The notes beneath the pieces are model-generated. The model was not told where the DNA came from. It saw only the letters and a program-made list of their open reading frames with translations, and made no database searches. The translations under genes were made by a program, and so were the position numbers. DNA of 56,757 nucleotides from Rickettsiales bacterium (GTDB lineage Bacteria; Pseudomonadota; Alphaproteobacteria; Micavibrionales; GCA-2720935): the NCBI GenBank assembly GCA_002720935.1, contig PBIV01000056.1, positions 1-56,757 on the forward strand. The letters run 5' to 3'. This document shows positions 492 through 54,590 of this stretch, in pieces; the stretch's first letter is position 1, and every line of letters begins with the position of its first letter.

Positions 492-755
492 TTACTCATC
501 TTCTTTAAGCGGTGGGTATGCCACAGGGTTCTCTATGAGGTCTCTTAAGTCGGTGGACAAAGTCCTTAGGTTTTCATTCTGATTCCTTACGTACCGCTCA
601 AACGGAGTAAGATCGGCGATAGCTTCAATGCGATTATGAAGTGCCATTAAATCGATAACAATTTTTTCAATATCGGCGGCAGTTTTACTGGTTGGCTTGG
701 CTTTAGTACCTAACTTAATAATTTCTGCCTCTGGTGGATCTATTTTCTTTACCAT
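492..755 (-). CDS. Hypothetical protein (87 aa)
   Basis: ORF with a GGAGG-like RBS upstream (aggaggggtaATG on the minus strand). No family recognised. Confidence 0.35.
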   Translation of the reverse strand: MVKKIDPPEAEIIKLGTKAKPTSKTAADIEKIVIDLMALHNRIEAIADLTPFERYVRNQNENLRTLSTDLRDLIENPVAYPPLKEDE

Positions 756-874
756 TACCCCTCCTGAAAAAATAACAATAATCAGGACAGCATAACTAAT
801 TTTATATTGATAGCATTTAGATAGTTTCTTTAGTCCGTAAAAAAGAAACTGAATTTATACGCATTACGCACGCG

Positions 875-1017
875 CGCGAGACAGAGCGATTAATTATAAC
901 TATTTGTAATTATATACTTTTTCAATCTGGGTGAGACAGGAGCGAGACAGCAATAGGGACAACACCGAGACAACACCGAGACAGGAGCGAGACAAGAGCG
1001 AGACAAGAGCGAGACAA
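875..1017 (+). repeat. Iteron array (CGAGACA-type 7-mers), candidate replication origin without a Rep ORF
   Basis: Exact CGAGACA at 877, 943, 966, 977, 988, 999 and 1010, plus variants at 932 and 955. The last six are phased at 11 bp and followed by an AT-rich tract. The architecture and a 20-bp core (893-912) match the prophage rep-internal origin at 30436-30565. Confidence 0.75.
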
Positions 1018-1099
1018 ATTTAAGAATGAGAGAGTGTATTTTATTATTTTTATATAAATGATTAGAATGAATAGAGGCTAGAGGACATGGTATATTAAT

Positions 1100-1246
1100 G
1101 TGCTACAATTTTTAACAGGGGTCTGTAAAAAGTGAAAAAACCTAAGTCATTGAATTAAAATGATTTGTATTATTCTTTTAATACCCTCTTTTAGAACAAA
1201 AAGCGGATAGTGCTACAAAAACTGTAGCAGGGTGCTACAATTTTTA
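1100..1246 (+). repeat. GTGCTACAA repeats including a TGCTACA/TGTAGCA palindrome
   Basis: GTGCTACAATTTTTA occurs at 1100-1114 and 1232-1246, and GTGCTACAA at 1210-1218. A palindrome TGCTACAaaaacTGTAGCA lies at 1211-1229. The region is non-coding, between the iterons and the 3' end of ORF 1257..1622. Confidence 0.7.
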
Positions 1247-1256
1247 GCAGTTCTTT

Positions 1257-1622
1257 TTAAATTTTCCATTCATTTGTGGGCTCTTTTCCATTATATGGCT
1301 GATACGTCAATCTCCATTCCCTTGCCATCCCCTTCTTAAAATTGCCTTCATATGCAAGCTCGATAAACCGCCTTTCAATAAGCTCATTAAAATAGTTCTG
1401 GATTGTACTGTGTGATGAAATATTCAACGCCTCCATCGCTTTTCTATGAGATAAGCCTAAGCGTCCATTTCTTTGTGGTGTATAGAGACTCTGCAACACA
1501 TTCAGGAGGCATTTTGCGCCACAACTTAGGCAAATGTACTCTTCACTATTAAAAACGTGTCTAGGAAGCCCTATGACGCCCTTTTCATGTTTATAATATT
1601 TATAGTTTTTCTTATGCCCCAT
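1257..1622 (-). CDS. Hypothetical island protein (121 aa), possible winged-helix DNA-binding protein
   Basis: ORF in the minus-strand island operon, overlapping the upstream gene by 11 nt. The segment EALNISSHSTIQNYFNELIERRFI looks HTH-like. The call is weak. Confidence 0.45.
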   Translation of the reverse strand: MGHKKNYKYYKHEKGVIGLPRHVFNSEEYICLSCGAKCLLNVLQSLYTPQRNGRLGLSHRKAMEALNISSHSTIQNYFNELIERRFIELAYEGNFKKGMAREWRLTYQPYNGKEPTNEWKI

Positions 1623-1857
1623 CTTTAATGATTTTCCTTACCTTGCTTACCGCTATCAATCGCCCCCTCTTAACTGGGCAAATACCATCTCTAGATATAT
1701 CCATGATAACCCTGCCCGATTTTTCACAAGAACGAACCCTTATAACTTTTATGATTTTAGCTTTATTTGACTGAACAAGCGTATGAGCCCACTGAATACA
1801 TTCAGTAAGCCCACCGCATTTTATGTCTTTGCTAGAAATTGCAAAATATGTAGCCAT
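1612..1857 (-). CDS. Hypothetical island protein (81 aa)
   Basis: ORF tightly packed in the operon. No motif recognised. Confidence 0.4.
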   Translation of the reverse strand: MATYFAISSKDIKCGGLTECIQWAHTLVQSNKAKIIKVIRVRSCEKSGRVIMDISRDGICPVKRGRLIAVSKVRKIIKDGA

Positions 1858-1859
1858 TA

Positions 1860-2210
1860 TTACGCCTTATTATAATGACTAGATACTTCCCTACCATTAA
1901 CGGAAATAATTCTTAAAGGCGTTTTAAGGACATAGCGCGCATGCCAGCCATCACTATGAGATTCTCTAATTGTTTCAATATTTAAGCCATAATCTGTTCT
2001 AAGAGTATGAATATAAGCACTTAACCTGAAAGCCCAACTGCAGGACAAGTCTAGTGTAGTCATCCCCTTATTCTTAAAAACGCTCAAAGCGTATAGGGTT
2101 CTGGCTATCTGCTTTGCTTTTATGCTTTTGCAAATATTTTTATTATTTGTGTCAGTCATATATTGAACTGATTTAATATTGATGAAGTTGTATTCTTTAG
2201 ATATAGTCAT
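1860..2210 (-). CDS. Winged-helix (HTH_39-like) island protein. Start chosen at the internal ATG at 2210.
   Basis: The C-terminal segment RLSAYIHTLRTDYGLNIETI resembles the HTH_39 signature. The longer ORF (to 2351) would overlap the AlpA-like gene. Confidence 0.4.
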   Translation of the reverse strand: MTISKEYNFINIKSVQYMTDTNNKNICKSIKAKQIARTLYALSVFKNKGMTTLDLSCSWAFRLSAYIHTLRTDYGLNIETIRESHSDGWHARYVLKTPLRIISVNGREVSSHYNKA

Positions 2211-2322
2211 TGTTGTAAGCCTCTTATTATTGCTTTGTTGGAGGTCATATAGAAGAATATGCCCCTTGTAGAATTGTTGCCCCACCGCAATTTTGCGAGG
2301 GGCTTTTTTATTGATGATAAAA

Positions 2323-2502
2323 TTATTTCTCGAGACTCTTAGCCCATTCAATAGATGCGTCCAAAGGTACGAGTGTCCTTTTACCTATCTTCATAATTCG
2401 AGGACCTCTACCGCTCCTTAAAAGTTTATAAAAGAAACTTGAGCTAATGCGGTGGGCTTCACAAAATTCATTTATTGAGAGTGCGTATTGATTTTTTGTC
2501 AT
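2323..2502 (-). CDS. AlpA/excisionase-family HTH regulator (59 aa, below the ORF-track cutoff)
   Basis: Hand translation gives MTKNQYALSINEFCEAHRISSSFFYKLLRSGRGPRIMKIGKRTLVPLDASIEWAKSLEK. This is the typical AlpA/MerR-like excisionase pattern, and the position near int fits. Confidence 0.6.
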   Translation of the reverse strand: MTKNQYALSINEFCEAHRISSSFFYKLLRSGRGPRIMKIGKRTLVPLDASIEWAKSLEK

Positions 2503-2605
2503 GTTTGTATCTCCTTGTTACTTTGTTGACAGAGATATACAAGCATGAACATTCACGTGACTTCAGCCAGTAAAAGTTAGAAATAGTCAGAAATTAAATA
2601 TAGCG

Positions 2606-3352
2606 TTATTTCTGGCCAATTTTTAATCGTCGATATATAGGAGAAACAAAGGCTTTTATTGTACTTTCGCTTAAGTCAGTATTTTGTTTTGCATACCATT
2701 CCAACAACTCACTTATTAGAGCTGATTGTGTTTCGGGCAGACCGTCAGGACTATTAGCGATTTCAATAATCTTGATATATAGCTCGTCTTTATCATATTT
2801 TGGTTTGCGGCCGCGCCTTTCAAAATATTCATCGGCTTTCATTTCTTGTGCCCCCTCTATCAGTTGAGTTTTTCTAGCAGGAGAATCTTTTTCACTGAAT
2901 ACTTGCAGTAAATGACTTGTCTGGATTTCTATTTTTTTGATACAAACATCAAGCTCAGGTTCTCTAGAAGTAATAGAAGCAATCTCTGAACCAATCCAAT
3001 TTACATCGTAATAAACATTACCCCAAAAACTTTGGTCAATAACTGTATCCGCTATTGTTTCAAAGGTAGATCTATTAAAGAAACAGCCACTGGCAATTAA
3101 TTCACCAGAAACAAGAAAGGTCTCTAACATTGTACAAGCATTCTTAAAGTCTAAAAACATACTTTGGTTTCGTAAAATAGCTCCATATTCATTATCATCG
3201 TCAAAATATGATTGATAGACTTTCATCGCCAAACCGAGTTGAATTGGTCTTTCACCAAAAGCGACCCAACGCACAGCCTGGTATAATGAACACATTTCTA
3301 GCATAGGTATTTTTTCTGAATAAATTAATTTTTCTACTTCTTTATTTTTCAT
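2606..3352 (-). CDS. Hypothetical island cargo protein (248 aa)
   Basis: ORF overlapping the integrase 3' end by 11 nt. No family recognised. Confidence 0.5.
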   Translation of the reverse strand: MKNKEVEKLIYSEKIPMLEMCSLYQAVRWVAFGERPIQLGLAMKVYQSYFDDDNEYGAILRNQSMFLDFKNACTMLETFLVSGELIASGCFFNRSTFETIADTVIDQSFWGNVYYDVNWIGSEIASITSREPELDVCIKKIEIQTSHLLQVFSEKDSPARKTQLIEGAQEMKADEYFERRGRKPKYDKDELYIKIIEIANSPDGLPETQSALISELLEWYAKQNTDLSESTIKAFVSPIYRRLKIGQK

Positions 3353-4538
3353 TCTTTACCCCATCCAAATAATCTGCCCAATCTTGCATCATGACTTTAC
3401 GCTCATCAAGAAACTGCGCACGGTTATAAGCCTCTCCTAATGCGCCTGATGCCTTATGAGCAAGCTGCACCTCAATTACATCTGGGTCATATTTAAGCTT
3501 TTCACGAATAGCAGTTCTCGCCAATGCCCGAAAACCATGAGCTGTCATACGTCCATGAAAGCCTAGTTTCTTAAGGGCTACATTGACTGTACCGTCACTA
3601 ATTGGCTTTCTTGGTTTAATGATACTAGGGAAAACAAACGGTGTCTTTAAGTAGCCCGTTTCATCTTTTTGTTCTTTAAGGATTTTTATAGCTTGCTCGG
3701 ACAAGGGAACAATATGCTCTCTATTCATTTTCATGCGGTGGGCAGGAATACGCCACTCTTTTTCAGCTAAGTTAAATTCATCCCATTGAGCAGCTCTTAA
3801 TTCGCCAGGTCTAACAAAGGTTAACATAGATAATTTAATTGCTCGCCTCGTTCTGGCATATAAACGCGCTTCATTCTTTTCAAGAGCTTGTAATAGCTCT
3901 GGTATCTCGGAGGTTTGCAATGCGGGGAAATGTTTTGTCTTATGAGGTTTTAAAGCGCCAACTAAATCCACCGCTAAATTACGCTCACAACGCCCTGTCG
4001 TAATCCCAAAGGAGAATACTTGCCCGCATAACTGCCTTATACGTCCAGCAATGTCTAAAGCCCCTCTCGCTTCTATCTTTCTAAGCACATCAAGCAAATC
4101 ACTTGTTTCAATTTTGGCAATTGGGGTCGTTCCAATAAAAGGAAATACATCTTTTTCTAAACGAGTTAAGATACCTTTAGCATAATTATCCGTCCATCCT
4201 GATTTCTTAGTTTCATGCCACTCCATAGCAACAGCTTGAAAAGTATTTTGAGAATTCCTGATTCGTTCTTTCTTTTGCTTTTTCTTATGGCTTGATGGAT
4301 CAACCCCATTTACTAAAAGCTTCTTAGCCTCATCTCTTGCAACTCGGGCTTCGGAAAGTGAAATAATAGGATATGTGCCAATTGATAATAGTTTTTCCTT
4401 GCCTAGAAACCTGTATTTCATACGCCAGTATTTAGACCCTGACGGATTAACTAATAAATATAAACCACCGCCATCCGATAATTTACGTGGTTTTTCTTCT
4501 GTTTTAGCATTCTTGCAAGCAATATTGCTTAATTTCAT
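3342..4538 (-). CDS. int: Tyrosine integrase, P4-like (DUF4102 N-terminal arm-binding domain)
   Basis: The N-terminus KLSDGGGLYLLVNPSGSKYWRMKYRFLGKEKLLSIGTYP is typical of P4-type integrases. The C-terminus has HGFR...LAH...Y catalytic-type motifs. The gene is adjacent to a tRNA 3' end. Confidence 0.9.
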   Translation of the reverse strand: MKLSNIACKNAKTEEKPRKLSDGGGLYLLVNPSGSKYWRMKYRFLGKEKLLSIGTYPIISLSEARVARDEAKKLLVNGVDPSSHKKKQKKERIRNSQNTFQAVAMEWHETKKSGWTDNYAKGILTRLEKDVFPFIGTTPIAKIETSDLLDVLRKIEARGALDIAGRIRQLCGQVFSFGITTGRCERNLAVDLVGALKPHKTKHFPALQTSEIPELLQALEKNEARLYARTRRAIKLSMLTFVRPGELRAAQWDEFNLAEKEWRIPAHRMKMNREHIVPLSEQAIKILKEQKDETGYLKTPFVFPSIIKPRKPISDGTVNVALKKLGFHGRMTAHGFRALARTAIREKLKYDPDVIEVQLAHKASGALGEAYNRAQFLDERKVMMQDWADYLDGVKNEK

Positions 4539-4708
4539 CTATAGATACCCCCACCTTTTTGAGATACCCCACTTTTATACCCCCAAAAATATGTGGATGT
4601 ACGTGAAGTCACAAATAGTCCTATATATTTTGATAGCGACTAAATGCTTGCTTGGCAAGGTGTTTGTGTATATCTATAAAGTTGTGTGAAGTAAGAGAAA
4701 GTAAAAAG

Positions 4709-4793
4709 TGGTGGTGGGAGTAGGATTCGAACCTACGTACGCAATGCGGGCAGATTTACAGTCTGCTGCCTTTAACCACTCGGCCATCCCACC
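4709..4793 (-). tRNA. tRNA-Tyr (anticodon GTA)
   Basis: 85-nt cloverleaf on the minus strand. Acceptor GGTGGGA/TCCCACC followed by A-CCA, anticodon loop CTGTAAA, long variable arm and GGTTCGAATCC T-arm. Confidence 0.9.
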
Positions 4794-4907
4794 AAAAATA
4801 TGAATAGCTGTTGATTAGCTTTGGCATCCTATAAAAAAGGGACTGGTAATTCAAGTGTAAAGTGAAAAGATATCCATATTTTTTAAAAGGCGTTGAATAT
4901 ACGGCCT

Positions 4908-5540
4908 TTATTTATAAAGACTGGCCTCAATTTTCCAGATTTTTATAAGCTCAGACTTTAAAATTGTTTTTTGAATATCAGGGTTGGAAAGCTGTTCTAA
5001 AGTGATTTCCTTGTCATTTTGCGCTGAGACCCTTCCCCAAAAGATACCTTGGCCATTTTCAACAAATATATAATCGCTTTGTTGAATGGTTTGTGATGTT
5101 TTGACTAATAATTGATCTTGATAATAAAATCGTGGGGCGCAACTATTATCAGGGCAGATAAAGCCAGCATCCATCGCATCAAATGAGATATTCTTTACCA
5201 AAGCCATCGAATAACAAATATAGTCATCGTCATTCATTGCCTCTAATTTAAATAAAGGAATTTGATTTTCATCGTTTTTTAATGAGTTTGGCTCTTGAGC
5301 GCTGAATATTATTGTATTCTCAATTTCATGGATATCCCCAAAACCATCAAGCAACCATTCATGCCTAATATTAAGGGCTTTTGCAATTTTGCGTGTTGTA
5401 TCAATGCGTGGATTTTTTGAGCGCCCCTTTAAAATATCACGGATAGCCGTCTCATTAAGGTTGGCTTTGCTTGAAAGCTCTTTTGCTCTCAAGCCTCTTT
5501 CTTGCATGATAAATTCTATACGCTCTTTTATATTTTTCAT
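4908..5540 (-). CDS. cI/LexA-like repressor (XRE HTH plus degenerate S24-like C-terminal domain)
   Basis: The N-terminal HTH is LRAKELSSKANLNETAIRDILKG. The C-terminal DNSCAPRF...IFWGRV aligns with the S24 GDSMxP...vKRl pattern but lacks the Lys. It is a paralog of the prophage cI (26297..26956). Confidence 0.6.
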   Translation of the reverse strand: MKNIKERIEFIMQERGLRAKELSSKANLNETAIRDILKGRSKNPRIDTTRKIAKALNIRHEWLLDGFGDIHEIENTIIFSAQEPNSLKNDENQIPLFKLEAMNDDDYICYSMALVKNISFDAMDAGFICPDNSCAPRFYYQDQLLVKTSQTIQQSDYIFVENGQGIFWGRVSAQNDKEITLEQLSNPDIQKTILKSELIKIWKIEASLYK

Positions 5541-5619
5541 TGTTATGTCTTGCGCAGTCTTTTTAAAAGTGGGATATTTCCCACCACAATAGATAATCTA
5601 TTTAAATAAGTGTATCAAA

Positions 5620-5943
5620 ATGAAATTTTTGCGCAAAGGGATTATGAAGATGGAAAAAATAATTGATTACAACTATAAAAACGAAAGCAAAATTCTTTGT
5701 CCCAAAAGCACGGCCTCGCAAACTCTCCCCCATTATCAGGATACAAGAGATATCTTGCGTAAAAATTTAATCAATTTTAGAAAAGAAAGACATTTATCAC
5801 AAAAACAAATCGCAAAAATTTTAGGGATTTCTTATCAACAGATTCAAAAATATGAGAATGGCAAAAATAGAATTTCAGCCGAAACATTGTATCAGCTAAG
5901 CCGCTTTTATCATATCTGTTTGGAAAAATTTTTTATTATTTAA
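5620..5943 (+). CDS. XRE-family HTH regulator (cro-like partner, divergent from 4908..5540)
   Basis: The segment LSQKQIAKILGISYQQIQKYENGKNRISAETL is a canonical XRE HTH. The true start may be an internal Met. Confidence 0.6.
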   Translation: MKFLRKGIMKMEKIIDYNYKNESKILCPKSTASQTLPHYQDTRDILRKNLINFRKERHLSQKQIAKILGISYQQIQKYENGKNRISAETLYQLSRFYHICLEKFFII

Positions 5944-5946
5944 TGC

Positions 5947-41970: not shown

Positions 41971-41978
41971 GACATAAA

Positions 41979-43624: not shown

Positions 43625-43651
43625 TCATTTTTTAAATAAGGAGTAACTAAA

Positions 43652-44014: not shown

Positions 44015-44042
44015 TTAAATTTTAGAAAGCAGATAAAACACA

Positions 44043-48308: not shown

Positions 48309-48884
48309 ATGCAAAAACAAACTCTATTCAATAAGGCCATACAAACGCTTGCACGCAAAGTAAGGCTTATTGCTCAAAGGGGCGTTGTTTCGCTGATCAA
48401 TGACAGTAAGAAACTACAACAAATTCAATTAAAGCTCCTTGATGGCGAGGTCCGCTCGGAATTAGAGCGATTTCAAAACTATGGATTTACAAGCGTTCCT
48501 AAAACGGGATCAGAAGCCGCCGTTATATTCGTGAACGGTACAAGAGATCATGGTCTCGTTTTAGCGGTGGATGATAGACGATACAGACTAAAGCCACTTT
48601 CAGCAGGCGAGGTCGCGATCTATACCGATGAAGGCGATAAGATACATTTAAAGCGCAATAACAATATTGAAATCGAAACAAAGACCTTAACTGTGAAAGC
48701 GGATACAAAGGCACGATTTGAAACCCCTATTTTAGAATGCACGGGCCACATAATCGATAATTGCGAAACCAATACACACAACATGGGTGGTATGCGCGAA
48801 ATCTTCAACACCCACAAACATGAAGAAAATCCGAACCTATCAGGTTTAACGGAAGTTCCTAACCAATTAATGGATCAAAAATGA
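48309..48884 (+). CDS. Baseplate assembly protein V / Mu gp45-like spike
   Basis: NYGFTSVPKTGSEAAVIFVNGTRDHGLVLAVDDRRYR...GEVAIYTDEGDKIHL is the Mu gp45 pattern. Confidence 0.75.
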   Translation: MQKQTLFNKAIQTLARKVRLIAQRGVVSLINDSKKLQQIQLKLLDGEVRSELERFQNYGFTSVPKTGSEAAVIFVNGTRDHGLVLAVDDRRYRLKPLSAGEVAIYTDEGDKIHLKRNNNIEIETKTLTVKADTKARFETPILECTGHIIDNCETNTHNMGGMREIFNTHKHEENPNLSGLTEVPNQLMDQK

Positions 48885-49366
48885 GTGATATTGCTAGGTT
48901 CTGGTTTGATTTTGGCGGAGACGTCCAAATCGAACAGGGAGACTTTGTTCTCGATCAAGGATTAAATTCTTACATCATTAATAGTTTATTCGTTGATGGT
49001 CGCGCTTCGCGTGAACAGCTTATTGATAATGAAACCGACCAAAGAGGCTATTGGGCTGACACACCAGATGATCGTCATGGCTCATTACTATGGCTTTTGT
49101 CTCGTGAAAAGATGACAAGTTCTCTTTTAGAGCGAGCAAAAAACTATGCCTTTAACGCTCTTAAATGGCTCATTGATGAAGATATTGCACAAAAGGTTCT
49201 TGTCAGAACATATAGAGCTTCAAACGAGGCCTTGGGCATAGAGGTCGAAATCATAAGAGGCACCGCAACAGCTTATCAATATCTTTGGGATGGCCTTAAT
49301 AAACAAAGCAATTCTCTAAAAATCAATTCAACCTCTTTAGAAATAAGGTTCAACGATGGCGTTTAA
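48881..49366 (+). CDS. Baseplate protein, Mu gp46 family
   Basis: Position, and a DGRASREQLIDNETDQRGYWAD pattern typical of GP46. Confidence 0.65.
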   Translation: MSDIARFWFDFGGDVQIEQGDFVLDQGLNSYIINSLFVDGRASREQLIDNETDQRGYWADTPDDRHGSLLWLLSREKMTSSLLERAKNYAFNALKWLIDEDIAQKVLVRTYRASNEALGIEVEIIRGTATAYQYLWDGLNKQSNSLKINSTSLEIRFNDGV

Positions 49367-50408
49367 AAGACCAAGCTATAATGAAATAATTGATCGTGTA
49401 AAAACAGATGTAGAATCACAATTAGAAACTGGCAAGCTTTTACCAAGATCAACCTTATCTTATATTTGTAATGCTTTCTCAGGTGCTGTTCATGGGCTAT
49501 ATGGCTTTATTGACTGGGCCACAAAACAAATTTTTCCCGATACCGCCACAGCTGAAAATCTTGAGCGATGGGCCGATATTTATGGCCTTTCACGAAAACA
49601 AGCATCTTTTGCAACAGGCGTTCTCACTTTTACTGGCGAGAATGGAAGTGTCATTCCTGAAAATACCGCCATTCGCCGTAAAGACGGATTAACTTATTAC
49701 ACATCTGAAGAAGTAACAATTTCGGACGGTTCTGCATCTGCCTCTGTTACTTGTGATACAGCAGGCACGAATGGTAATACCGCCTCTTCAACTGAATTGA
49801 GTTTAGAGACGTCTATTGAAGGAATTGATACCACAGCAACGGTTGATTCTGATGGCATTACTGGCGGTGGAGATATTGAAAATGATGCCCTATTACGATC
49901 ACGTCTTCTAACACGCATTAAAAAGCCTCCTTATGGCGGTTCAGAACATGATTATGAGCTTTGGGCTTTAGAAGTACCAAACATTACAAGAGCGTATGTA
50001 AAGCCGTTATGGGCAGGTTTAGGAACGGTTGCTGTTTACGTTATCGATGATGATGGGGCAACTGCACCAATCCCAGATAGTGAGACTTTACAAGCGGTCA
50101 CTGATTACATCGAAGAACAAAGACCTGTTACTGCTGATGTTAGTGTTTTTGCACCGACACCAAAGGAATTAGACATCACGCTTTCTATCACACCAGATAG
50201 CACAGCAACGAGACAAGCGGTTGAGGCAAATTTAAAAGATATGCTTCGAAGGGATGCAGCACCTGGTGCAACTATCTATTTAAGCAGAATTAGAGAAGCG
50301 GTCTCTATAGCAACGGGCGAAAACGATAACACAGTCACATCCCCAAGTGCTGACTTCACAACGGCTACGGGCGAAATCGCAGTTCTTGGAGATATTACAT
50401 GGACGTAA
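49356..50408 (+). CDS. Baseplate J-like protein (Mu gp47)
   Basis: Size, position and the N-terminal FKRPSYNEIIDRVKTDVES pattern. Confidence 0.7.
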   Translation: MAFKRPSYNEIIDRVKTDVESQLETGKLLPRSTLSYICNAFSGAVHGLYGFIDWATKQIFPDTATAENLERWADIYGLSRKQASFATGVLTFTGENGSVIPENTAIRRKDGLTYYTSEEVTISDGSASASVTCDTAGTNGNTASSTELSLETSIEGIDTTATVDSDGITGGGDIENDALLRSRLLTRIKKPPYGGSEHDYELWALEVPNITRAYVKPLWAGLGTVAVYVIDDDGATAPIPDSETLQAVTDYIEEQRPVTADVSVFAPTPKELDITLSITPDSTATRQAVEANLKDMLRRDAAPGATIYLSRIREAVSIATGENDNTVTSPSADFTTATGEIAVLGDITWT

Positions 50409-50980
50409 ACCAATATAAAGATCAGCTAAAAAGCTTACTGCCTTCAGGCGATGCCTTCCCACGTGAAGAAGGAACCACCCTAGATCAATTTTTCAATGCG
50501 GTGGCCTTTGAATTAGAGCGAGCCGATGGCCGTGTAGAAGATTTAATCAATGAGGCTTTCCCGCTGACATCTGATGAATTGCTTTATGATTGGGAACGAG
50601 TTCTCGATCTACCTGCTCCATGTATCATTACAACACAAACAAAACAAGAAAGACGTGTCTCTGCTAACTCAAAACTTGGCACTTTAGGCGGGCAATCAAA
50701 GGCTTTTTATAAAGAACTCGCCGCTAGTATTGGATTTGATGTTGAGATTAATGACTATGGTGCTTTCAAAGCTGGAGCCTCAAAGGCAGGCGATAGTGTC
50801 GGGGAAGCTTGGAAATTTGCATTTAACGTCTCAGCCCCTGAAGAAACAATCAAAACATTTAAAGCAGGTAGTGGCTCAGCAGGCGAACCTCTAAGGACTT
50901 GGGGAAATACAGAGCTTGAATGCTTAATCAGTTTATATAAACCCGCTCACACTCTGAGCATCTTTACTTATGGGAGTTAA
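50399..50980 (+). CDS. Tail protein, Mu gp48 / DUF2313 family
   Basis: YKDQLKSLLPSGDAFPREEGTTLDQFFNAVAFELERADGRVEDL is the DUF2313 pattern. Confidence 0.7.
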   Translation: MDVNQYKDQLKSLLPSGDAFPREEGTTLDQFFNAVAFELERADGRVEDLINEAFPLTSDELLYDWERVLDLPAPCIITTQTKQERRVSANSKLGTLGGQSKAFYKELAASIGFDVEINDYGAFKAGASKAGDSVGEAWKFAFNVSAPEETIKTFKAGSGSAGEPLRTWGNTELECLISLYKPAHTLSIFTYGS

Positions 50981-50985
50981 TAAGA

Positions 50986-52041
50986 ATGAAACGTATTGAT
51001 ACACCAACGGCAACCGATATTGAACCTGGTAAAAAAGGTTTCACAGATGGCGAACCATCAACAGGAACGCCAGCCACAACCGTTGATTCTAGTTGGTTAA
51101 ATCAGCTTCAAGAAGAGATCGCTTATGTCATTGAAGAGAATGGGATCACGCTTGATGAAGAAGAGAGCACCCAATTACATCAAGCAATTTCATTGATGTC
51201 CGCCTTTAAAATTAGCGCACTTACTTCCATCACGTCTTTACAAGATACAGATAAAGTTCCCGTTATGGATGATAGCGAGGCAACCGACAGCAATCGCAGT
51301 ATCACGTTCTTAAACTTTGCAACGGCCGTTCTTTCTAAGTTCTCTTTATTTGGCTTTTCTAGTGAGACAACCATCGCCGATAATGACTTCTTGGTCTTTT
51401 CAGATACGAGCAATAGTAACAACAATAAAAAGCTGACTTTTAGCCACTTTGCCACAGCTATTCTTAATAAGCTTTCTTTAAATTCATTTACCACTGAAAC
51501 ATCACTCAATGATGCAGATTTTGTGGTTTTCGCCGATGATTCAAATTCATTGGAAAATAGAAAAGTTTCTTTATTGAACTTTAAAAACTGGATTAATTCA
51601 GGCGTTACAACGCCCGATGCAACAACAACAACCAAGGGTAAAGTTGAATTAGCGACGGATGCTGAAGTAAAAAATGAAACAGCAAGTAAAGTGTTAACAG
51701 CTGATCAAATTAAATATAACAAAGGTATCGCAAAGGCTTGGATAAATTTTGATGGAACTGGTTCAATAACTGTTAACGAACAGCATAATGTTTCAAGCAT
51801 TACCGATCTTGGTACAGGTAAATATCAAATAAATCTATCTATTTCAATGGTCGGCTCTTATGTGGTTATGGTTAGAGATGGTGCAGACAAAGTAACAAGT
51901 AAAGTAATGACTCCTAAAGCGGCAAGTTCTTTTGAAATCAGGACATCGGGTGGATCGAGTGGATATCAGACAAATTCTGACACAGCATATTTGAAAGATG
52001 GCGAAGATATTGACGTTTTAGTTTTTGGTAATATCACATAG
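50986..52041 (+). CDS. Tail fibre protein with three internal tandem repeats
   Basis: Position after the baseplate genes. The N-terminus KRIDTPTA...WLNQLQEEIAYVIE is typical of fibres. About 40-aa repeats span residues ~85-205. Confidence 0.7.
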   Translation: MKRIDTPTATDIEPGKKGFTDGEPSTGTPATTVDSSWLNQLQEEIAYVIEENGITLDEEESTQLHQAISLMSAFKISALTSITSLQDTDKVPVMDDSEATDSNRSITFLNFATAVLSKFSLFGFSSETTIADNDFLVFSDTSNSNNNKKLTFSHFATAILNKLSLNSFTTETSLNDADFVVFADDSNSLENRKVSLLNFKNWINSGVTTPDATTTTKGKVELATDAEVKNETASKVLTADQIKYNKGIAKAWINFDGTGSITVNEQHNVSSITDLGTGKYQINLSISMVGSYVVMVRDGADKVTSKVMTPKAASSFEIRTSGGSSGYQTNSDTAYLKDGEDIDVLVFGNIT

Positions 52042-52054
52042 GAAGGATAGAAAA

Positions 52055-52495
52055 ATGAAACAATTCATAATTATAAACAAAGATAAAACTGTGGGATTAA
52101 TTTCAAGTAATTCGAATAAAGAAGTTCAGAAGGAAATTGACAAGTTCCCCGAAGATAAAAAAGAGAGCTTTGATTTTTTTATTGAAGCTAAGGACATACC
52201 TATCCCGCAGAAATATAACTGGCGAGATGCTTGGTATTATTGTTCAGAAGATAATGCGATAAAAATCGATTTAGAAGAGGCAAAGAAATGCCAAAGAAAA
52301 TTGATCATCAGTAAAGCTATGGAAAGAGTTGAGACAAACGAATGGGGGGAAATGAACCTTTCTGTTGTTCAAGATGAGTTTAAAGAAATCGATTTTGAAT
52401 CAATTGATAACCTAGATGATCTTTACAACACTTGGCCCGCATCAATAGAAAATAGAAAAGAACGCCGTATATACCCAAGATATAAGGAGGATTAA
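52055..52495 (+). CDS. Hypothetical protein after the tail fibre (possible fibre assembly factor)
   Basis: ATG at 52055 with a GGAAGGA RBS. Call by position only. Confidence 0.4.
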   Translation: MKQFIIINKDKTVGLISSNSNKEVQKEIDKFPEDKKESFDFFIEAKDIPIPQKYNWRDAWYYCSEDNAIKIDLEEAKKCQRKLIISKAMERVETNEWGEMNLSVVQDEFKEIDFESIDNLDDLYNTWPASIENRKERRIYPRYKED

Positions 52496-52741
52496 TTGTC
52501 TCATTTCCCTAACGATAGACAGCTAAAAGTGACCATTAGCACTATACTCGATTTTGGTCACATCTTTTCAACTCTAATCATTATCGTTTTTCTAGTTACT
52601 TGGGGAATTAACGTAGAAAACCGTCTCACATATCTTGAGACACAATCAATCGCTACTGAGAAGCGCATGGATAGGGAGATCCAGTATATTCGAGATAGCC
52701 TTGGGCGCATTGAATTAAAAATCGATCAAAAAAATCAATAA
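52496..52741 (+). CDS. Small single-TM protein (TTG start), possible holin or holin-associated protein
   Basis: AAGGAGG RBS 6 nt before the TTG. One TM segment (IFSTLIIIVFLVTWGI) and a coiled C-terminus. Precedes the endolysin. Confidence 0.4.
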   Translation: MSHFPNDRQLKVTISTILDFGHIFSTLIIIVFLVTWGINVENRLTYLETQSIATEKRMDREIQYIRDSLGRIELKIDQKNQ

Positions 52742-52754
52742 TAAAGGACATATT

Positions 52755-53159
52755 ATGCCTGTTTTACCATCACAGCACTTTACTGTGGCTGAATTCGCTG
52801 ACCCTGTAACCAATACATTTGAGTTTGAGCACGGCTTTATTGATCATTTGGAACTTTTGCGCTCTGCCTGTGGATTTCCATTTATAGTAACAAGCGGATG
52901 TCGTTCATCTGAACATTTAGCTTATTTAAAGTCTCGTGGTTATCCCGCAAGTGAAAACAGCTTCCATCTCATGGATAATAAGAAATATGGCACGAAAACA
53001 TGTGCGGTGGATATTAAAAGACCATCAAGTTCAAACCTGCATAAGCTTCTCATGCATGCCACTAAATATGGATGGACGGTCGGTATTGCGAAAACATTTA
53101 TTCATTTAGATCTTCGCTCAAAATACACGGATAAAAAAGCAATCATTTACAGCTATTAA
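52755..53159 (+). CDS. Endolysin, peptidase M15 (zinc D-Ala-D-Ala carboxypeptidase-like) family
   Basis: VTSGCRSSEHLAYLKSRGYPASENSFHLMD...CAVDI...FIHLDLR gives an H..D...H zinc-ligand pattern. Confidence 0.7.
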   Translation: MPVLPSQHFTVAEFADPVTNTFEFEHGFIDHLELLRSACGFPFIVTSGCRSSEHLAYLKSRGYPASENSFHLMDNKKYGTKTCAVDIKRPSSSNLHKLLMHATKYGWTVGIAKTFIHLDLRSKYTDKKAIIYSY

Positions 53160-53181
53160 CCAAGAAAGGAACGGTGATCAA

Positions 53182-53346
53182 ATGGATTATCTAAAGAAGG
53201 CTCTTAACTGGGTCAAAGAAAATAAGAAAAAGACTATCACAGGCGTTGTGGGTCTAGCAGGTTTTGTTGGCTATGCAATCGAACCTGAAATTGTAGACCA
53301 CGCTTTAAGCCTCGCTCTATTCTTAGTCGAGACCTTTGGCGCATAA
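53182..53346 (+). CDS. Small membrane protein (54 aa, hand-called), holin candidate
   Basis: MDYLKKALNWVKENKKKTITGVVGLAGFVGYAIEPEIVDHALSLALFLVETFGA. The stop overlaps the next ATG. Confidence 0.4.
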   Translation: MDYLKKALNWVKENKKKTITGVVGLAGFVGYAIEPEIVDHALSLALFLVETFGA

Positions 53347-53555
53347 TGTCATATTTAAACTATATAAAATGGGCGGTCATATTTCTTGGCCGTCTATTGC
53401 CTTTTTTATTTGCCTATTTCCAAGGTAAAGAATCTCAAAAGAAAGCAGAGCTTGAAGATGAATTGGAAAGTATTGAGCAGGCCCGCATTATTCGTGATCG
53501 CATTGATAATGATGACGACGCTCGTAAAAGGGTGCAAGACCACTTCCGCGGGTAG
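53346..53555 (+). CDS. i-spanin (Rz-like) candidate
   Basis: N-terminal TM segment, then a charged coiled region QKKAELEDELESIEQARIIRDRI. Confidence 0.5.
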   Translation: MSYLNYIKWAVIFLGRLLPFLFAYFQGKESQKKAELEDELESIEQARIIRDRIDNDDDARKRVQDHFRG

Positions 53556-53664
53556 CTTTTGCAATATCTATAAACCCATTAAATACAAAAAAGAATTTGT
53601 AGAGGACTATATTAGCCTGCAAATTGATAAAAATAACGCAGTTTATTTAGAACAGTGTCAATAA
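53458..53664 (+). CDS. o-spanin (Rz1-like) lipoprotein candidate, overlapping the i-spanin in the +1 frame
   Basis: MNWKVLSRPALFVIALIMMTTLVKGC is a signal peptide with a Cys after a Gly. It starts inside the Rz-like gene and extends beyond it. Confidence 0.4.
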   Translation: MNWKVLSRPALFVIALIMMTTLVKGCKTTSAGSFCNIYKPIKYKKEFVEDYISLQIDKNNAVYLEQCQ

Positions 53665-53792
53665 GACACGAGGGTCAAGGGTGCGCCAACACCCTCAACC
53701 GTAAGTCATAACCTTACATGAACATGAACGGCCGATACATGGCCATCTCGCATCCCCATGGGAGCAATCATTTAACATGAAAGGTATTAATA

Positions 53793-54590
53793 ATGTCTTT
53801 ACAAGAAATTCAACCCCTCCAACCTATAGCAGCATATCTTGGTGGAAAAAGTAAATTAGCAAAAACAATCACACGAATAATTAACGAAACAGAACATAAA
53901 ATTTACGCCGAGCCTTTTATCGGAATGGGCGGTGTATTTTTAAGGCGGAACTTTATTCCTCAGTCAGAGATAATAAATGACTATAATAAAGAGGTTTCAA
54001 ATTTCTTCAGGATACTACAGCGTCACTATAATCCGTTTATGGACACTTTAAAATGGCGTTTAAGTTCAAGAGCAGAGTTCAATCGCTTATTGAGTGTTAA
54101 TATAGAAACATTAACCGACCTAGAGAGGGCAGCTAGATTTTTATATCTTCAAAAAAATGCATTTGGCGGGAAAGCAGCAGGGCAAAGTTTTGGTGTAACT
54201 AAAGAACGATCTGGCCGCTTTAATATTTATAAGCTTGCTTCTATTCTTGAAGAAGTTCATGAGCGTTTATCTGGTGTAACTATCGAATGCCTAGATTATA
54301 AAGAGTTCATCAAAAGGTATGATCACAAAGATATACTGTTCTATTTAGACCCCCCTTATTTTGGTTGTGAAAAAGACTACGGCAATGATCTCTTTTCGCG
54401 TTTTGAATTTGAGTTCATGGCCGCCATTCTTAAGAAAATAAAAGGTAAATTCATTCTGTCTTTAAACGATCACGAAAAGGTACGAGAGATTTTCAAAGAC
54501 TTTAATATTGATGCGGTGGAAACCACTTATAGTATTTCAGTTACAAAAGAAAAAACTCGTTACGGCGAAGTTCTGATTAAGAATTATTAA
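53793..54590 (+). CDS. dam: DNA adenine methyltransferase, Dam (D12 class) family
   Basis: AYLGGKSKLA...EPFIGMGGVFL...FYLDPPYF motifs. Confidence 0.8.
   Translation: MSLQEIQPLQPIAAYLGGKSKLAKTITRIINETEHKIYAEPFIGMGGVFLRRNFIPQSEIINDYNKEVSNFFRILQRHYNPFMDTLKWRLSSRAEFNRLLSVNIETLTDLERAARFLYLQKNAFGGKAAGQSFGVTKERSGRFNIYKLASILEEVHERLSGVTIECLDYKEFIKRYDHKDILFYLDPPYFGCEKDYGNDLFSRFEFEFMAAILKKIKGKFILSLNDHEKVREIFKDFNIDAVETTYSISVTKEKTRYGEVLIKNY

What the first reader, a model, noticed from the sequence alone, without database searches (positions are those of the whole stretch)
509..54519. The heptamer GCGGTGG is massively over-represented, strand-biased and confined to the two mobile elements
By-eye scanning found GCGGTGG on the plus strand at 24 positions: 509, 2449, 3735, 20172, 20727, 22335, 22508, 25975, 27769, 28261, 28762, 30659, 30723, 30817, 31028, 31912, 32511, 44302, 46169, 48564, 49864, 50498, 53004 and 54513. 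Its complement CCACCGC occurs at 7 positions: 1811, 2282, 3968, 4465, 28739, 29337 and 31322. I found none in the roughly 13 kb of backbone (4.8-16.0 kb and 54.8-56.8 kb). For this AT-rich composition, a 6-G/C heptamer should occur on the order of once per strand in 57 kb; this is a rough estimate, not a computed value. The motif falls in all three reading frames (Ala-Val GCG GTG, x-Gly-Gly GC GGT GG, Arg-Trp CGG TGG) and uses rare GC-rich codons, so codon usage does not explain it. In the prophage the orientation is 21:3 regardless of gene direction; it stays plus-oriented inside minus-strand early genes. It is densest around the replication module (27.7-32.5 kb) and absent from 32.6-44.2 kb. 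It differs from E. coli Chi (GCTGGTGG) by one base. It could be a Chi-like signal protecting or recombining linear phage DNA. It could also be a recognition site for an MGE-encoded function shared by island and prophage.
Basis: partly seen in the sequence, partly recalled or inferred. Interest (0 to 1): 0.75.

Follow-up and report, generated by a model that had tools for sequence, protein, structure and literature searches.

The report
Chi hotspot motif packed into a prophage
GCGGTGG is most likely the host's Chi signal, the short sequence that switches the bacterial DNA-end-chewing enzyme from degradation to recombination; a temperate phage with no recombination genes, and a tiny island that shares its replication origin, have accumulated many copies, repeating a pattern recently described in E. 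coli and Pseudomonas phages.

Summary
GCGGTGG occurs 24 times on the plus strand and 7 times on the minus strand, at exactly the listed positions. Expected counts are 1.8 (dinucleotide shuffles), 4.0 (order-3 Markov) and 5.4 in the prophage after synonymous-codon shuffling. Only the exact heptamer is enriched.

"Confined to the MGEs" is overstated. About 14 kb of extra backbone from the same species holds 3 copies. Density is 0.11/kb in backbone, 0.62/kb in the prophage and 1.5/kb in the island.

The heptamer is the first 7 bases of GCGGTGGT, the experimentally supported Chi of Caulobacter crescentus AddAB. The host is also an alphaproteobacterium.

In λ-map coordinates the prophage has 21 top-strand and 3 bottom-strand sites, about 1 per 1.6 kb. 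They get denser toward the right end, just upstream of TerS, and an 11.8-kb stretch starting about 2 kb upstream of TerS and running through the head genes has none. No recombinase, exonuclease or Gam-like gene is detectable. This matches the "no Rec module, high Chi" phages LLS (20:3) and MD8 (32:0).

An independent phage (TerL 75% identical) has 10:0 sites, all upstream of its terminase, and 9 of them at non-homologous positions.

Verdict: a new member of a known kind, the first I know of for an alphaproteobacterial (probably AddAB) host. In passing, the 4.7-kb island carries a copy of the prophage origin, so it may be a satellite.

The parts
16106..54774 (+). Integrated temperate phage, about 38.6 kb, in λ-prophage gene order: attL, int, early-left operon, CI-like repressor, early-right/replication, TerS-TerL, head, contractile tail, attR. 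It carries 24 GCGGTGG sites: 21 on the top strand and 3 on the bottom strand.
   Evidence: Empty-site scaffold L081 fixes the boundaries. Gene annotation. Motif positions.
16036..16105 (+). attL: a 70-bp direct repeat covering the 3' part of tRNA-Val (16010-16086) and the sequence just downstream.
   Evidence: L081 6241-6310 matches both 16036-16105 and 54705-54774. Sequences shown. tRNA.
54705..54774 (+). attR: the second copy of the 70-bp repeat.
27769..32517 (+). Right-end Chi cluster. Top-strand sites at 27769, 28261, 28762, 30659, 30723, 30817, 31028, 31912 and 32511. Bottom-strand sites at 28739, 29337 and 31322. In phage-map coordinates this is the last 18% of the genome before TerS.
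   Evidence: Nine of the 21 top-strand sites lie in the rightmost 22% of the map. A blind scan of rotations puts the best origin at 32.7-33.9 kb.
20172..25981 (+). Top-strand sites in the early-left/immunity region: 20172, 20727, 22335, 22508 and 25975. Sites 20172, 22335 and 22508 lie antisense inside minus-strand genes.
44302..54519 (+). Sparser top-strand sites in the tail/late region: 44302, 46169, 48564, 49864, 50498, 53004 and 54513.
32518..44301 (.). Motif-free arc of 11.8 kb. It starts about 2 kb upstream of TerS and runs through TerS, TerL, portal, capsid and tail sheath. From the TerS/cos region onward this is the left end of the packaged genome, the part farthest from the presumed enzyme entry point.
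   Evidence: p = 0.014 for a gap this long. The same pattern appears in L132: 0 sites in the 8 kb downstream of the TerL start.
34619..34737 (+). Intergenic region just upstream of TerS, the presumed location of cos. This is inferred; the cut site was not mapped.
   Evidence: Sequence. TerL is λ GpA-type, PF05876 + PF20454.
34738..37087 (+). Terminase small subunit (34738-35253) and large subunit (35219-37087). They define the left end and the orientation of the phage map.
   Evidence: (phrog_57, phrog_15)
20931..22914 (-). Early-left DNA-transaction genes: YfdQ/DUF2303 (20931-21827), YfdP-like (21871-22257), a 74-aa ORF, and SSB (22504-22914). No strand-annealing protein, exonuclease or Gam/Abc2 homolog was found.
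   Evidence: The YfdQ model has pLDDT 88.9 and no PDB fold match at E <= 1e-3. LLS carries yfdQ/yfdP too.
30420..30615 (+). Prophage origin inside the O/DnaD-like initiator gene (30176-31228). CGAGACA iterons at 30436, 30448, 30514 and 30526, a 22-bp core (30462-30483), and an AT-rich tract.
1..4697 (-). Small integrative island of about 4.7 kb next to tRNA-Tyr (4709-4793). It encodes an integrase (3342-4538), a 248-aa ORF, HTH proteins and small ORFs. It has 7 GCGGTGG sites: 509, 2449 and 3735 on the plus strand, and 1811, 2282, 3968 and 4465 on the minus strand. This is the highest density in the window, 1.5 per kb, with no polarity.
   Evidence: A complete variant of the island is in L114.
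860..1030 (+). Origin cassette in the island, homologous to the prophage origin. CGAGACA iterons at 877, 943, 966, 977, 988, 999 and 1010 (the last five at 11-bp spacing), plus the same 22-bp core (891-912). The island has no initiator gene.
   Evidence: alignment A1, 78% identity. Present in the independent assembly L087/L115. Absent from the island variant L114 and L116-118.
4698..16035 (-). Chromosomal backbone (HTH regulators, RlmB, M48 peptidase, Xth, YbaB, DnaX). It has 0 motif copies.

Best explanation
GCGGTGG is most likely the Chi sequence of the host's double-strand-end helicase-nuclease. Because the host is an alphaproteobacterium, that enzyme is probably AddAB.

The prophage is a λ-organised, cos-type (GpA terminase) temperate phage with no recognisable recombination module. 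It has accumulated Chi at about 1 per 1.6 kb on the strand that is 'active' for an enzyme entering at the free right end. That end is produced by cos cleavage or by a rolling-circle tail.

Proposed steps (all inferred):
1. During lytic growth the host enzyme loads on the right end and moves leftward.
2. It meets the dense site cluster within the first 2-7 kb.
3. It is attenuated there and produces a 3' tail coated with RecA.
4. The phage DNA is spared from degradation and enters host-driven recombination or recombination-dependent replication. That yields the concatemers needed for packaging.

Many sites are needed because recognition at each site is inefficient. With the per-site value of about 0.23 estimated in Caulobacter, 9 sites give about 90% capture and 21 give more than 99%.

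The 4.7-kb island shares the phage's origin cassette, so it probably replicates alongside the phage. It would face the same enzyme, which would explain why it carries Chi at even higher density and in both orientations.

Shown: the enrichment, specificity, polarity and gradient of the motif; replication of the pattern in a second phage; identity to the Caulobacter Chi core; and the absence of detectable Rec genes.
Inferred: the identity of the enzyme, the entry end, and the physiological benefit.
For: (1) Motif identity. Caulobacter crescentus Chi is 5'-GCGGTGGT-3'. An array of 15 copies attenuates AddAB-dependent break processing only in one orientation (PMC5443536). The window's motif is bases 1-7 of that octamer, and only the exact heptamer is enriched.

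(2) Host. The host is an alphaproteobacterium (DnaX equivalog; relatives; NCBI label 'Rickettsiales bacterium' MAG). AddAB replaces RecBCD in most α-proteobacteria (PMC1193525).

(3) Pattern match to a described class. LLS has 23 Chi sites, 20:3 in the active orientation, 1 per 1.86 kb, half of them in the rightmost 22% of the map, and no Rec module. MD8 has 32:0 (PMC12315714). This prophage has 24 sites, 21:3, 1 per 1.6 kb, quartile counts 1/5/5/10, mean map position 0.67 (p = 0.003), and 9 of 21 in the rightmost 22%. A blind rotation scan places the origin of the gradient at 32.7-33.9 kb, just before TerS at 34.7 kb. The active strand is the same as in λ, the top strand with terminase at the left.

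(4) No Rec module. No SAP, exonuclease, Gam or Abc2 family is found in any prophage ORF by PHROGs or Pfam. The conserved early-left YfdQ protein has a confident model with no known recombination fold. LLS has the same yfdQ/yfdP pair.

(5) Independent replicate. L132 (TerL 75% identical, 42.5% GC, a different sample) has 10:0 sites. All lie within 10 kb upstream of TerL and none in the 8 kb downstream. GCGGTGG is also its top 7-mer, and only 1 of the 10 sites is at a position homologous to the window.

(6) Polarity follows the genome map, not transcription: 5:1 inside minus-strand genes, p = 0.003. The two phages together give 31:3, p = 8e-7.

(7) Not explained by coding.

(8) The three backbone copies are all on the G-rich strand that most backbone genes use. 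That fits Chi co-oriented with replication. It is also the opposite polarity to the prophage sites, so the prophage bias is not inherited from chromosome polarity.
Against: The host enzyme was not identified; I could reach no addAB or recBCD sequence from this genome.

Enrichment on the chromosome is unproven. Three copies in about 27 kb compares with 0.9-1.9 expected (p about 0.06 at best). [quoted passage not shown]

The 8th base is not T here (3 of 31 sites in the window, 7 of 41 with L132). The local Chi would therefore be a 7-mer, or differ from Caulobacter's at position 8.

Other GpA-terminase phages of Alphaproteobacteria show no enrichment: RcBaka 0 sites, CRP-406 4:2, Wolbachia WO 1:0. 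The more distant relatives L133-136 and L140 show none either. The signal is therefore narrow in host range.

About ten small early ORFs have no annotation and could hide a novel recombinase or inhibitor.

The cos site and the packaging direction are inferred from terminase type and gene order only.

The island shows no polarity (3:4).
Confidence: 0.8

Rival explanations
1. GCGGTGG is the target of a function encoded by the mobile elements themselves, for example a phage DNA methyltransferase or modification enzyme, or a packaging or replication protein shared by island and prophage.
For: The motif is concentrated in the two MGEs. The prophage encodes two DNA methyltransferases (28101-28775 and 53793-54590), and three motif copies lie inside the first of these genes. 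The island and prophage are functionally linked through a shared origin.
Against: The island and prophage share no detectable protein, and the island has no methyltransferase. What they share is a different repeat, CGAGACA. L132 shows the same polar enrichment, yet its early region is largely different: it carries a C5-methylase gene that this prophage lacks, and only three short protein-level matches to the window upstream of TerS, one of them to part of the 28101-28775 methyltransferase gene. Small orphan methyltransferases normally recognise short palindromes, and no known selection makes a genome accumulate targets for its own modification enzyme. The exact match to a host-enzyme signal known from another alphaproteobacterium would then be coincidence.
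Confidence: 0.06
2. The pattern is a strand-asymmetry adaptation against a host restriction-like defence, as in T7, where all EcoP15I sites point the same way, and has nothing to do with recombination.
For: The strong single-strand polarity, 31:3 over two phages, is what Type III evasion produces. This comparison comes from my own knowledge of T7 and EcoP15I, not from a source read here.
Against: Evasion explains the orientation but not a 6- to 13-fold over-representation; such sites should be avoided, not accumulated. It also does not predict the gradient toward one genome end, the mixed orientation at the highest density in the island, or identity to the Caulobacter Chi.
Confidence: 0.03
3. 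It is a chromosome-architecture motif (KOPS/AIMS-like, read by FtsK) or a DNA-uptake sequence of the host that the MGEs carry passively.
For: It is a short, G-rich, skewed oligomer. The three backbone copies are all co-oriented.
Against: Density is about 6 to 14 times higher in the MGEs than in the backbone, the reverse of a chromosomal signal carried passively. The prophage polarity is opposite to that of the backbone copies. The polarity is organised around the phage terminase and cos region, and the same holds in a free phage contig, L132.
Confidence: 0.03
4. It is a compositional, coding or repeat artefact: a conserved peptide motif, codon bias, or a dispersed repeat family.
For: Most sites are in genes, and 17 of the 21 top-strand prophage sites are in the sense strand of plus-strand genes. 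One site, in the methyltransferase gene, is conserved by homology between the window and L132.
Against: Synonymous shuffling gives 5.4 against 24 observed and 0.64 against 7 observed. The sites use all three frames and both senses and encode different peptides. Flanks are unrelated. No one-mismatch variant is enriched.
Confidence: 0.01

Closest known systems
[quoted passage not shown]
   Same: Shared features are lambdoid gene order, a GpA-type terminase and a fused protease-capsid gene. Neither phage has a recognisable SAP, exonuclease or anti-RecBCD gene, and both have yfdQ and yfdP in the early-left operon. Site numbers are close: 23 versus 24 sites, 20:3 versus 21:3 in the top-strand orientation, and 1 per 1.86 kb versus 1 per 1.6 kb. 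In both, sites are concentrated at the right end next to cos.
   Different: The motif differs (GCTGGTGG versus GCGGTGG). The host is an uncultured marine alphaproteobacterium, and the enzyme is presumably AddAB and not RecBCD. The tail is contractile. The phage encodes an SSB. Nothing has been tested experimentally here, whereas LLS growth is measurably helped by RecBCD.
Pseudomonas aeruginosa phage MD8 and relatives (same paper)
   Same: This is a non-enteric example. It has 32:0 polar sites of a host-specific Chi, clustered at the right end. The motif is the most frequent octamer in the phage but unremarkable in the host chromosome, which parallels the high-in-phage, low-in-backbone contrast seen here.
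   Different: The host uses RecBCD, and its Chi (GCTGGCGC) was validated biochemically.
Caulobacter crescentus Chi, 5'-GCGGTGGT-3' (predicted by Jensen 2006; tested in vivo by Badrinarayanan et al. 2017, PMC5443536)
   Same: It shares the same 7-base core. It acts in an orientation-dependent way on an alphaproteobacterial AddAB, and the low per-site efficiency (about 0.23) gives a reason for needing many copies.
   Different: The 8th base, T, is not conserved here. The Caulobacter motif was described on a 67%-GC chromosome, not in phages. The host here has 38% GC and is only distantly related (DnaX about 45-50% identical to the alphaproteobacteria sampled).
E. coli Chi (GCTGGTGG), and Chi protection of rolling-circle DNA from RecBCD or AddAB (Dabert et al. 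1992, as summarised in bioRxiv 10.1101/2021.07.08.451572)
   Same: The GC...GGTGG core is shared, recognition is polar from the 3' side, and Chi protects or recombines linear tails.
   Different: The sequences differ by a one-base deletion. Wild-type λ itself has no Chi because it encodes Red and Gam.
Small phage satellites such as the minimalist islands (PICMI) of marine Vibrio. This comparison is from my own knowledge and was not checked in the library.
   Same: The island is about 4.7 kb and integrates at a tRNA gene. It has an integrase plus a few small regulators and no structural genes. It may depend on a co-resident phage.
   Different: The link here is a copied phage origin cassette without the initiator gene. 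No cos or pac copy, helper induction or packaging has been shown. The host clade is different.

Membership tests
Chi (crossover hotspot instigator) sequence of a RecBCD/AddAB-type enzyme | A specific short sequence recognised by the host helicase-nuclease, which is then attenuated or cuts near it | not testable with these tools
   This needs biochemistry or genetics. Indirect support: the motif equals bases 1-7 of the Caulobacter AddAB Chi.
Chi (crossover hotspot instigator) sequence of a RecBCD/AddAB-type enzyme | Orientation dependence relative to the DNA end the enzyme enters | tested here: met
   21:3 in this prophage and 10:0 in L132, on the strand that is active for entry at the right (cos) end. 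Density rises toward that end. This is statistical evidence, not functional evidence.
Chi (crossover hotspot instigator) sequence of a RecBCD/AddAB-type enzyme | Exact-sequence specificity: single-base variants are not selected | tested here: met
   None of the 21 one-substitution variants is enriched.
Chi (crossover hotspot instigator) sequence of a RecBCD/AddAB-type enzyme | Over-representation on the host chromosome, co-oriented with replication | tested here: inconclusive
   Three copies in about 27 kb of same-species backbone against 0.9-1.9 expected. All three are on the G-rich, gene-rich strand. The sample is too small, and I could not reach the whole genome.
Chi (crossover hotspot instigator) sequence of a RecBCD/AddAB-type enzyme | The host encodes AddAB or RecBCD | not testable with these tools
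   No addA-like ORF is in any locus I hold. The enzyme is inferred from taxonomy: AddAB is almost ubiquitous in α-proteobacteria (PMC1193525).
[quoted passage not shown] | Lambdoid genome organisation with a cos-type (GpA) terminase | tested here: met
   The order is int, early-left, CI, CII, O-like initiator, TerS/TerL, head, tail. TerL has PF05876 + PF20454. Unlike λ, the tail is contractile.
[quoted passage not shown] | No strand-annealing protein, recombination exonuclease or anti-RecBCD/AddAB protein | tested here: met
   PHROGs and Pfam find none in any ORF. The YfdQ model matches no known recombination fold. Caveats: an SSB is present, and about ten small ORFs are unannotated.
[quoted passage not shown] | At least 8 Chi sites in the active orientation and at most 6 in the inactive one, as described for 62 of the paper's 68 Enterobacteriales no-Rec-module phages | tested here: met
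   21 active and 3 inactive; criterion taken.
[quoted passage not shown] | [quoted passage not shown] | tested here: met
   Quartile counts are 1/5/5/10, and 9 of 21 sites are in the rightmost 22% (p = 0.026). The mean map position gives p = 0.003.
[quoted passage not shown] | Phage growth is helped by the host end-processing enzyme and RecA | not testable with these tools
   The host is uncultured.
Phage satellite (PICI/PICMI-like), for the 4.7-kb island | A small integrative element lacking structural genes, with a cis element borrowed from a helper phage | tested here: met
   The island is 4.7 kb with an integrase plus regulators only. Its origin cassette is 78% identical to the prophage origin, with the same iterons and 22-bp core.
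Phage satellite (PICI/PICMI-like), for the 4.7-kb island | A packaging signal (cos or pac) of the helper, or capsid-redirecting genes | tested here: not met
   Apart from the origin segment, short-word BLAST found only two short matches to the prophage: 14 nt at prophage 23084-23097 and 18 nt at the att core, both E = 0.58. Neither is in the TerS-proximal region. No packaging genes are present.
Phage satellite (PICI/PICMI-like), for the 4.7-kb island | Induction, replication and transfer that depend on the helper | not testable with these tools
   This requires experiments.
KOPS/AIMS-type chromosome polarity motif | Denser on the chromosome than in MGEs, with orientation set by the replichore | tested here: not met
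   Density in the MGEs is 6-14 times that of the backbone. The prophage orientation is opposite to that of the backbone copies.

The most novel reading that the evidence does not exclude
The 4.7-kb island may be a minimalist satellite of this prophage. On this reading it has captured the helper's origin cassette (iterons plus core, without the initiator gene). It relies on host AddAB/RecA acting at its very dense, two-orientation Chi sites to multimerise into capsid-length concatemers; 8 x 4.75 kb is about 38 kb, one phage genome length. Chi density would then be a general, computable signature of elements that must recombine or form concatemers using host enzymes. It would also give a way to read the Chi sequence of uncultured bacteria directly from their prophages and satellites. 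That the Caulobacter Chi core recurs in a distant 38%-GC marine lineage would further imply deep conservation of AddAB Chi recognition within Alphaproteobacteria.
Probability: 0.25. Interest if true: 0.7.

Novelty: new member of a known kind. Interest (0 to 1): 0.5.

Why it matters
Chi-rich temperate phages without their own recombination genes were defined in 2025 for RecBCD hosts (enterics and Pseudomonas). This window shows the same design in a phage of an uncultured marine alphaproteobacterium. The signal is the one known from Caulobacter AddAB, and a second phage replicates the pattern.

If this holds, three things follow:
- The "borrow the host's recombination by loading up on Chi" strategy extends to AddAB hosts and to ocean bacteria.
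- The Chi sequence of an organism that cannot be cultured can be inferred from sequence alone.
- The Chi core appears to be conserved across very different alphaproteobacteria.

A practical consequence is that polar, end-clustered oligomers in prophages could be mined systematically to catalogue Chi sequences. The island's shared origin is a separate lead toward very small phage satellites outside the Gammaproteobacteria.

Tried and rejected
(1) Maximal-order Markov background. It hides the signal because the sub-words are themselves made up of the motif, so I replaced it with order-1 and order-3 models and with codon shuffles.

(2) GTDB genome scan with DnaX.

(3) GCGGTGG counts in 80 DnaX loci of diverse, mostly high-GC alphaproteobacteria: 268:294 against 565 expected. 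This says nothing useful about how widely the motif is conserved.

(4) IMG/VR and JGI scans with TerL. They found only distant relatives (46% identity or less), with no enrichment.

(5) More distant relatives from the protein database: L133-135 (59%), L136 (64%), L141 (66%, almost entirely head genes) and L140 (a YfdQ relative, 57% GC). None shows enrichment. The apparent polar octamer in L133-135 is only a 9-bp tandem repeat at a contig end.

(6) Phages of cultured alphaproteobacteria: RcBaka, CRP-406 and Wolbachia WO. None shows enrichment, so the signal is not a general property of this terminase lineage or of the whole class.

(7) Extending the island leftward. All contigs carrying this form of the island end within about 0.5 kb of the window's first base. 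The full island was seen only as a variant, in L114.

(8) Looking for a hidden recombinase. A PDB sequence search with YfdQ and with the phrog_874 protein found nothing. A confident AlphaFold model of YfdQ matches only other DUF2303 proteins.

(9) Looking for addA in the loci I hold, using helicase and nuclease motifs: none found.

(10) Literature. Full-text searches for the bare motif return only primer noise. Jensen 2006 is not held in the library, so I cite it through PMC5443536.

(11) Considered from memory only and dismissed: an ops/RfaH-like element (GGCGGTAG). The sites are antisense in minus-strand genes and far too numerous.

Full report
OBSERVATION

Dinucleotide-preserving shuffles give 1.83 +/- 1.42, with a maximum of 5. 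An order-3 Markov model gives 4.04 (p = 1.5e-17). It is by far the most over-represented 7-mer in the window, and its 6-mer and 8-mer neighbours are enriched only because they are part of it.

The sites fall in all three reading frames, in sense and antisense orientation, and one or two lie between genes. Shuffling synonymous codons within each gene leaves 5.4 +/- 2.0 copies in the prophage against 24 observed, and 0.64 +/- 0.79 in the island against 7 observed. The selection therefore acts on the DNA, not on the proteins. None of the 21 single-substitution variants is enriched. The flanking sequence is unrelated between sites, apart from a depletion of C at position -1.

WHERE THE WINDOW COMES FROM, AND THE ELEMENT BOUNDARIES

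The backbone genes (DnaX, YbaB, Xth, RlmB, SodC) are alphaproteobacterial. The nearest genomes in GTDB are only about 45-51% identical in DnaX. Exact protein look-ups show that the window is one 56,757-bp contig of a Tara Oceans MAG deposited as "Rickettsiales bacterium". The same species also occurs on scaffolds of 0.84 and 1.69 Mb.

One of these scaffolds (L081/L104) has both integration sites empty, which fixes the boundaries:
- The prophage spans about 16.1-54.7 kb. It is flanked by a 70-bp repeat that includes the 3' part of tRNA-Val.
- The island occupies 1-4697, next to tRNA-Tyr.
- A complete variant of the island in L114 shows that the whole element is only about 4.7 kb.

IS THE MOTIF CONFINED TO THE MOBILE ELEMENTS?

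Not strictly. The window's own 13.4 kb of backbone has none. About 14 kb of further backbone from the same species carries three copies, so the total is 3 in about 27 kb.

Densities are 0.11 per kb in backbone, 0.62 per kb in the prophage and 1.5 per kb in the island. The difference between MGEs and backbone is significant (p = 1e-4).

The three backbone copies all lie on the G-rich strand that carries most backbone genes. That is the opposite orientation to the prophage sites.

WHAT THE MOTIF IS

The literature search was decisive. The Chi sequence of Caulobacter crescentus was predicted by Jensen (2006). Badrinarayanan et al. (2017) then tested it in vivo, using arrays that attenuate AddAB-dependent break processing in one orientation only. 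That sequence is 5'-GCGGTGGT-3' (PMC5443536). The window's heptamer is its first seven bases.

AddAB replaces RecBCD in most α-proteobacteria (PMC1193525). The 8th base is not constrained to T here: 3 of 31 sites in the window, and 7 of 41 when L132 is included. The local signal therefore appears to be the 7-mer.

WHY THE PROPHAGE IS FULL OF IT

The prophage has λ-prophage gene order: int, a leftward early operon, a CI-like S24 repressor, CII-like and O/DnaD-like genes, TerS, a GpA-type TerL (PF05876 + PF20454), portal, a fused protease-capsid gene, a contractile tail, and a Dam-like methylase next to attR.

I rotated the coordinates to the standard phage map, with terminase at the left. The 21 top-strand sites then fall 1/5/5/10 across the four quartiles. 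Their mean position is 0.67 (p = 0.003), and 9 of the 21 lie in the rightmost 22%. An 11.8-kb arc with no sites at all starts about 2 kb upstream of TerS and runs through the head genes (p = 0.014). A blind scan of all rotations places the start of the gradient at 32.7-33.9 kb, just before TerS at 34.7 kb.

This reproduces the pattern that Zheng, Casjens, Davidson, Amundsen and Smith (2025) described for E. coli phage LLS. LLS has 23 Chi sites, 20:3 on the top strand, 1 per 1.86 kb, half of them in the rightmost 22%, and no Rec module. They describe the same for Pseudomonas phage MD8, which has 32:0 sites (PMC12315714).

In their model the right end left free by cos cleavage is the entry point for the host enzyme. 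The enzyme meets top-strand Chi from its 3' side, is activated, and drives the recombination that produces packageable concatemers. Phages that carry their own Red/Gam-type module lack Chi.

THE REC-MODULE CRITERION

PHROGs and Pfam scans of every prophage ORF found no strand-annealing protein, no recombination exonuclease and no Gam/Abc2-type inhibitor. The early-left operon contains an SSB, YfdP and YfdQ/DUF2303. LLS carries the same yfdQ/yfdP pair, and its authors argue that these genes are not recombination genes.

I modelled YfdQ from a 62-sequence alignment (pLDDT 88.9). It matches nothing in the PDB at E <= 1e-3, and in BFVD it matches only other DUF2303 proteins. There is thus no sign of a hidden recombinase fold. 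About ten small ORFs remain unannotated.

INDEPENDENT REPLICATION

The closest other phage I could retrieve is L132 (TerL 75% identical, 42.5% GC, from an unrelated sequencing run). It has ten GCGGTGG sites on the top strand and none on the bottom strand. All ten lie in the 10 kb upstream of TerL and none in the 8 kb downstream, and GCGGTGG is again the top 7-mer.

The early regions of the two phages are mostly non-homologous. Only one of the ten sites sits at a position homologous to a window site, so the motif accumulated independently in each.

Across both phages the orientation follows the genome map and not transcription. Sites inside minus-strand genes are 5:1 on the map-top strand (p = 0.003 against the sense preference expected from coding). 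The overall count is 31:3 (p = 8e-7).

With the per-site recognition probability of about 0.23 estimated in Caulobacter, nine sites would capture about 90% of incoming enzyme molecules and 21 sites more than 99%. That gives a reason for having so many sites.

LIMITS OF GENERALITY

More distant relatives and phages from other hosts show no enrichment. These include IMG/VR and JGI hits at 46% identity or less, and L133-136, L140 and L141. They also include Rhodobacter phage RcBaka, Roseobacter phage CRP-406 (which has its own SSB and nuclease genes) and Wolbachia WO. The signal is therefore specific to a narrow host clade and to this lifestyle, as expected for a Chi. It is not a property of the terminase lineage.

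THE ISLAND

The island shares no protein with the prophage. It does contain a segment of about 170 bp that is 78% identical to the prophage origin, which lies inside the O-like initiator gene. Both segments have the same CGAGACA iterons (seven in the island, the last five at 11-bp spacing; four in the phage). Both also have the same 22-bp core, followed by AT-rich DNA.

The cassette is also present in an independent Tara assembly of the island. It is absent from the island variant that has the 396-aa integrase. The island has no initiator gene.

The simplest reading is that the island replicates using the phage's initiator, which would make it a satellite-like element. It would then be exposed to the same host nuclease during the lytic cycle. 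That would explain why it carries Chi at the highest density, and in both orientations. No cos copy was found, and nothing about mobilisation can be tested here.

RIVAL EXPLANATIONS

- An MGE-encoded reader of the motif is unlikely. The three elements that carry it share no obvious common gene: the island shares no protein with the prophage, and L132's early region is largely different, with only a few short protein-level matches to the prophage.
- Evasion of a Type III-like restriction system would explain the polarity. It would not explain the enrichment, the end gradient or the match to a known Chi.
- A chromosomal polarity motif or a DNA-uptake sequence would be denser on the chromosome and would follow the orientation of the replichore. 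The opposite is seen.
- Coding or compositional artefacts were tested and rejected.

VERDICT

This is a new member of a known kind, a Rec-less, Chi-loaded temperate phage. To my knowledge it is the first for an alphaproteobacterial, presumably AddAB, host, and it was inferred entirely from an uncultured organism.

What remains unproven is the host enzyme, the enrichment and skew on the chromosome, the identity of the exposed end, and any functional effect. The decisive computations and experiments are listed separately.

Noticed in passing
window 860-1030 and 30420-30615: The island and the prophage share a replication-origin cassette: CGAGACA iterons, an identical 20-22-bp core (TTATTATAACTATTTGTAATTA) and an AT-rich tract, 78% identical over about 170 nt. 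The island has no initiator gene. This suggests the 4.7-kb island is a satellite that uses the phage's O-like initiator.
   Followed up: partly
L114 9800-10050 (also L116-L118) compared with window 877-1075: The island variant with a 396-aa integrase lacks the origin cassette and has a short unrelated sequence there, which itself contains a CCACCGC. The cassette is therefore a swappable module. An independent assembly (L087/L115) of the 398-aa-integrase form does have it.
   Followed up: partly
window 20570-20645 (minus strand): A tRNA-Met gene lies inside the prophage early-left region, between the GcrA-like gene and yfdQ.
   Followed up: no
window 29305-30101 (minus strand): A ParE-toxin/HTH-antitoxin pair sits just upstream of the replication initiator gene. 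The related phages L132 and L136 (ParE) and L133 (HigB) have a toxin-antitoxin pair in the same position, so it looks like a conserved module slot.
   Followed up: no
window 19892-20350, 28101-28775, 53793-54590: The phage encodes a GcrA-like cell-cycle regulator and two DNA methyltransferases, one of them a D12/Dam-class enzyme next to attR. This combination suggests interference with the methylation-dependent cell-cycle control of alphaproteobacteria.
   Followed up: no
window 20931-21827 (YfdQ/DUF2303): A confident AlphaFold model (pLDDT 88.9, pTM 0.76) has no structural match in the PDB at E <= 1e-3 and matches only other DUF2303 phage proteins in BFVD. This widespread early-left phage protein, also present in LLS, ST64B and E. 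coli CPS-53, seems to have an uncharacterised fold.
   Followed up: partly
window 23455-25103: Between the early-left operon and the repressor lie a WYL/TerB-domain protein (23455-24249, plus strand) and a 285-aa ORF with a weak cyclodipeptide-synthase-like hit (24246-25103, minus strand). They could be accessory or defence genes.
   Followed up: no
all 41 GCGGTGG sites (window plus L132): The base immediately 5' of the motif is almost never C (1 of 41 against 19% expected, p = 0.004). The base 3' of it tends not to be T (7 of 41 against 31% expected, p = 0.06), even though Caulobacter Chi has T there. The local recognition sequence may be DGCGGTGG.
   Followed up: partly
L133, L134, L135 (Tara Pacific scaffolds of about 42 kb): Three contigs of about 42.1 kb from different samples carry the same phage (TerL 59% identical) with different start points, which indicates a complete, circularly assembled genome. 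Each has a 9-bp tandem repeat (CAGAGCCAA)n at a contig end or assembly gap. GCGGTGG is not enriched in it.
   Followed up: partly
window 1142-1159 compared with 16087-16104 and 54756-54773: An 18-nt stretch in the island matches (17 of 18, inverted) the outer end of the prophage att core. The E-value is 0.58, so this is probably chance, but it lies close to the shared origin cassette.
   Followed up: no
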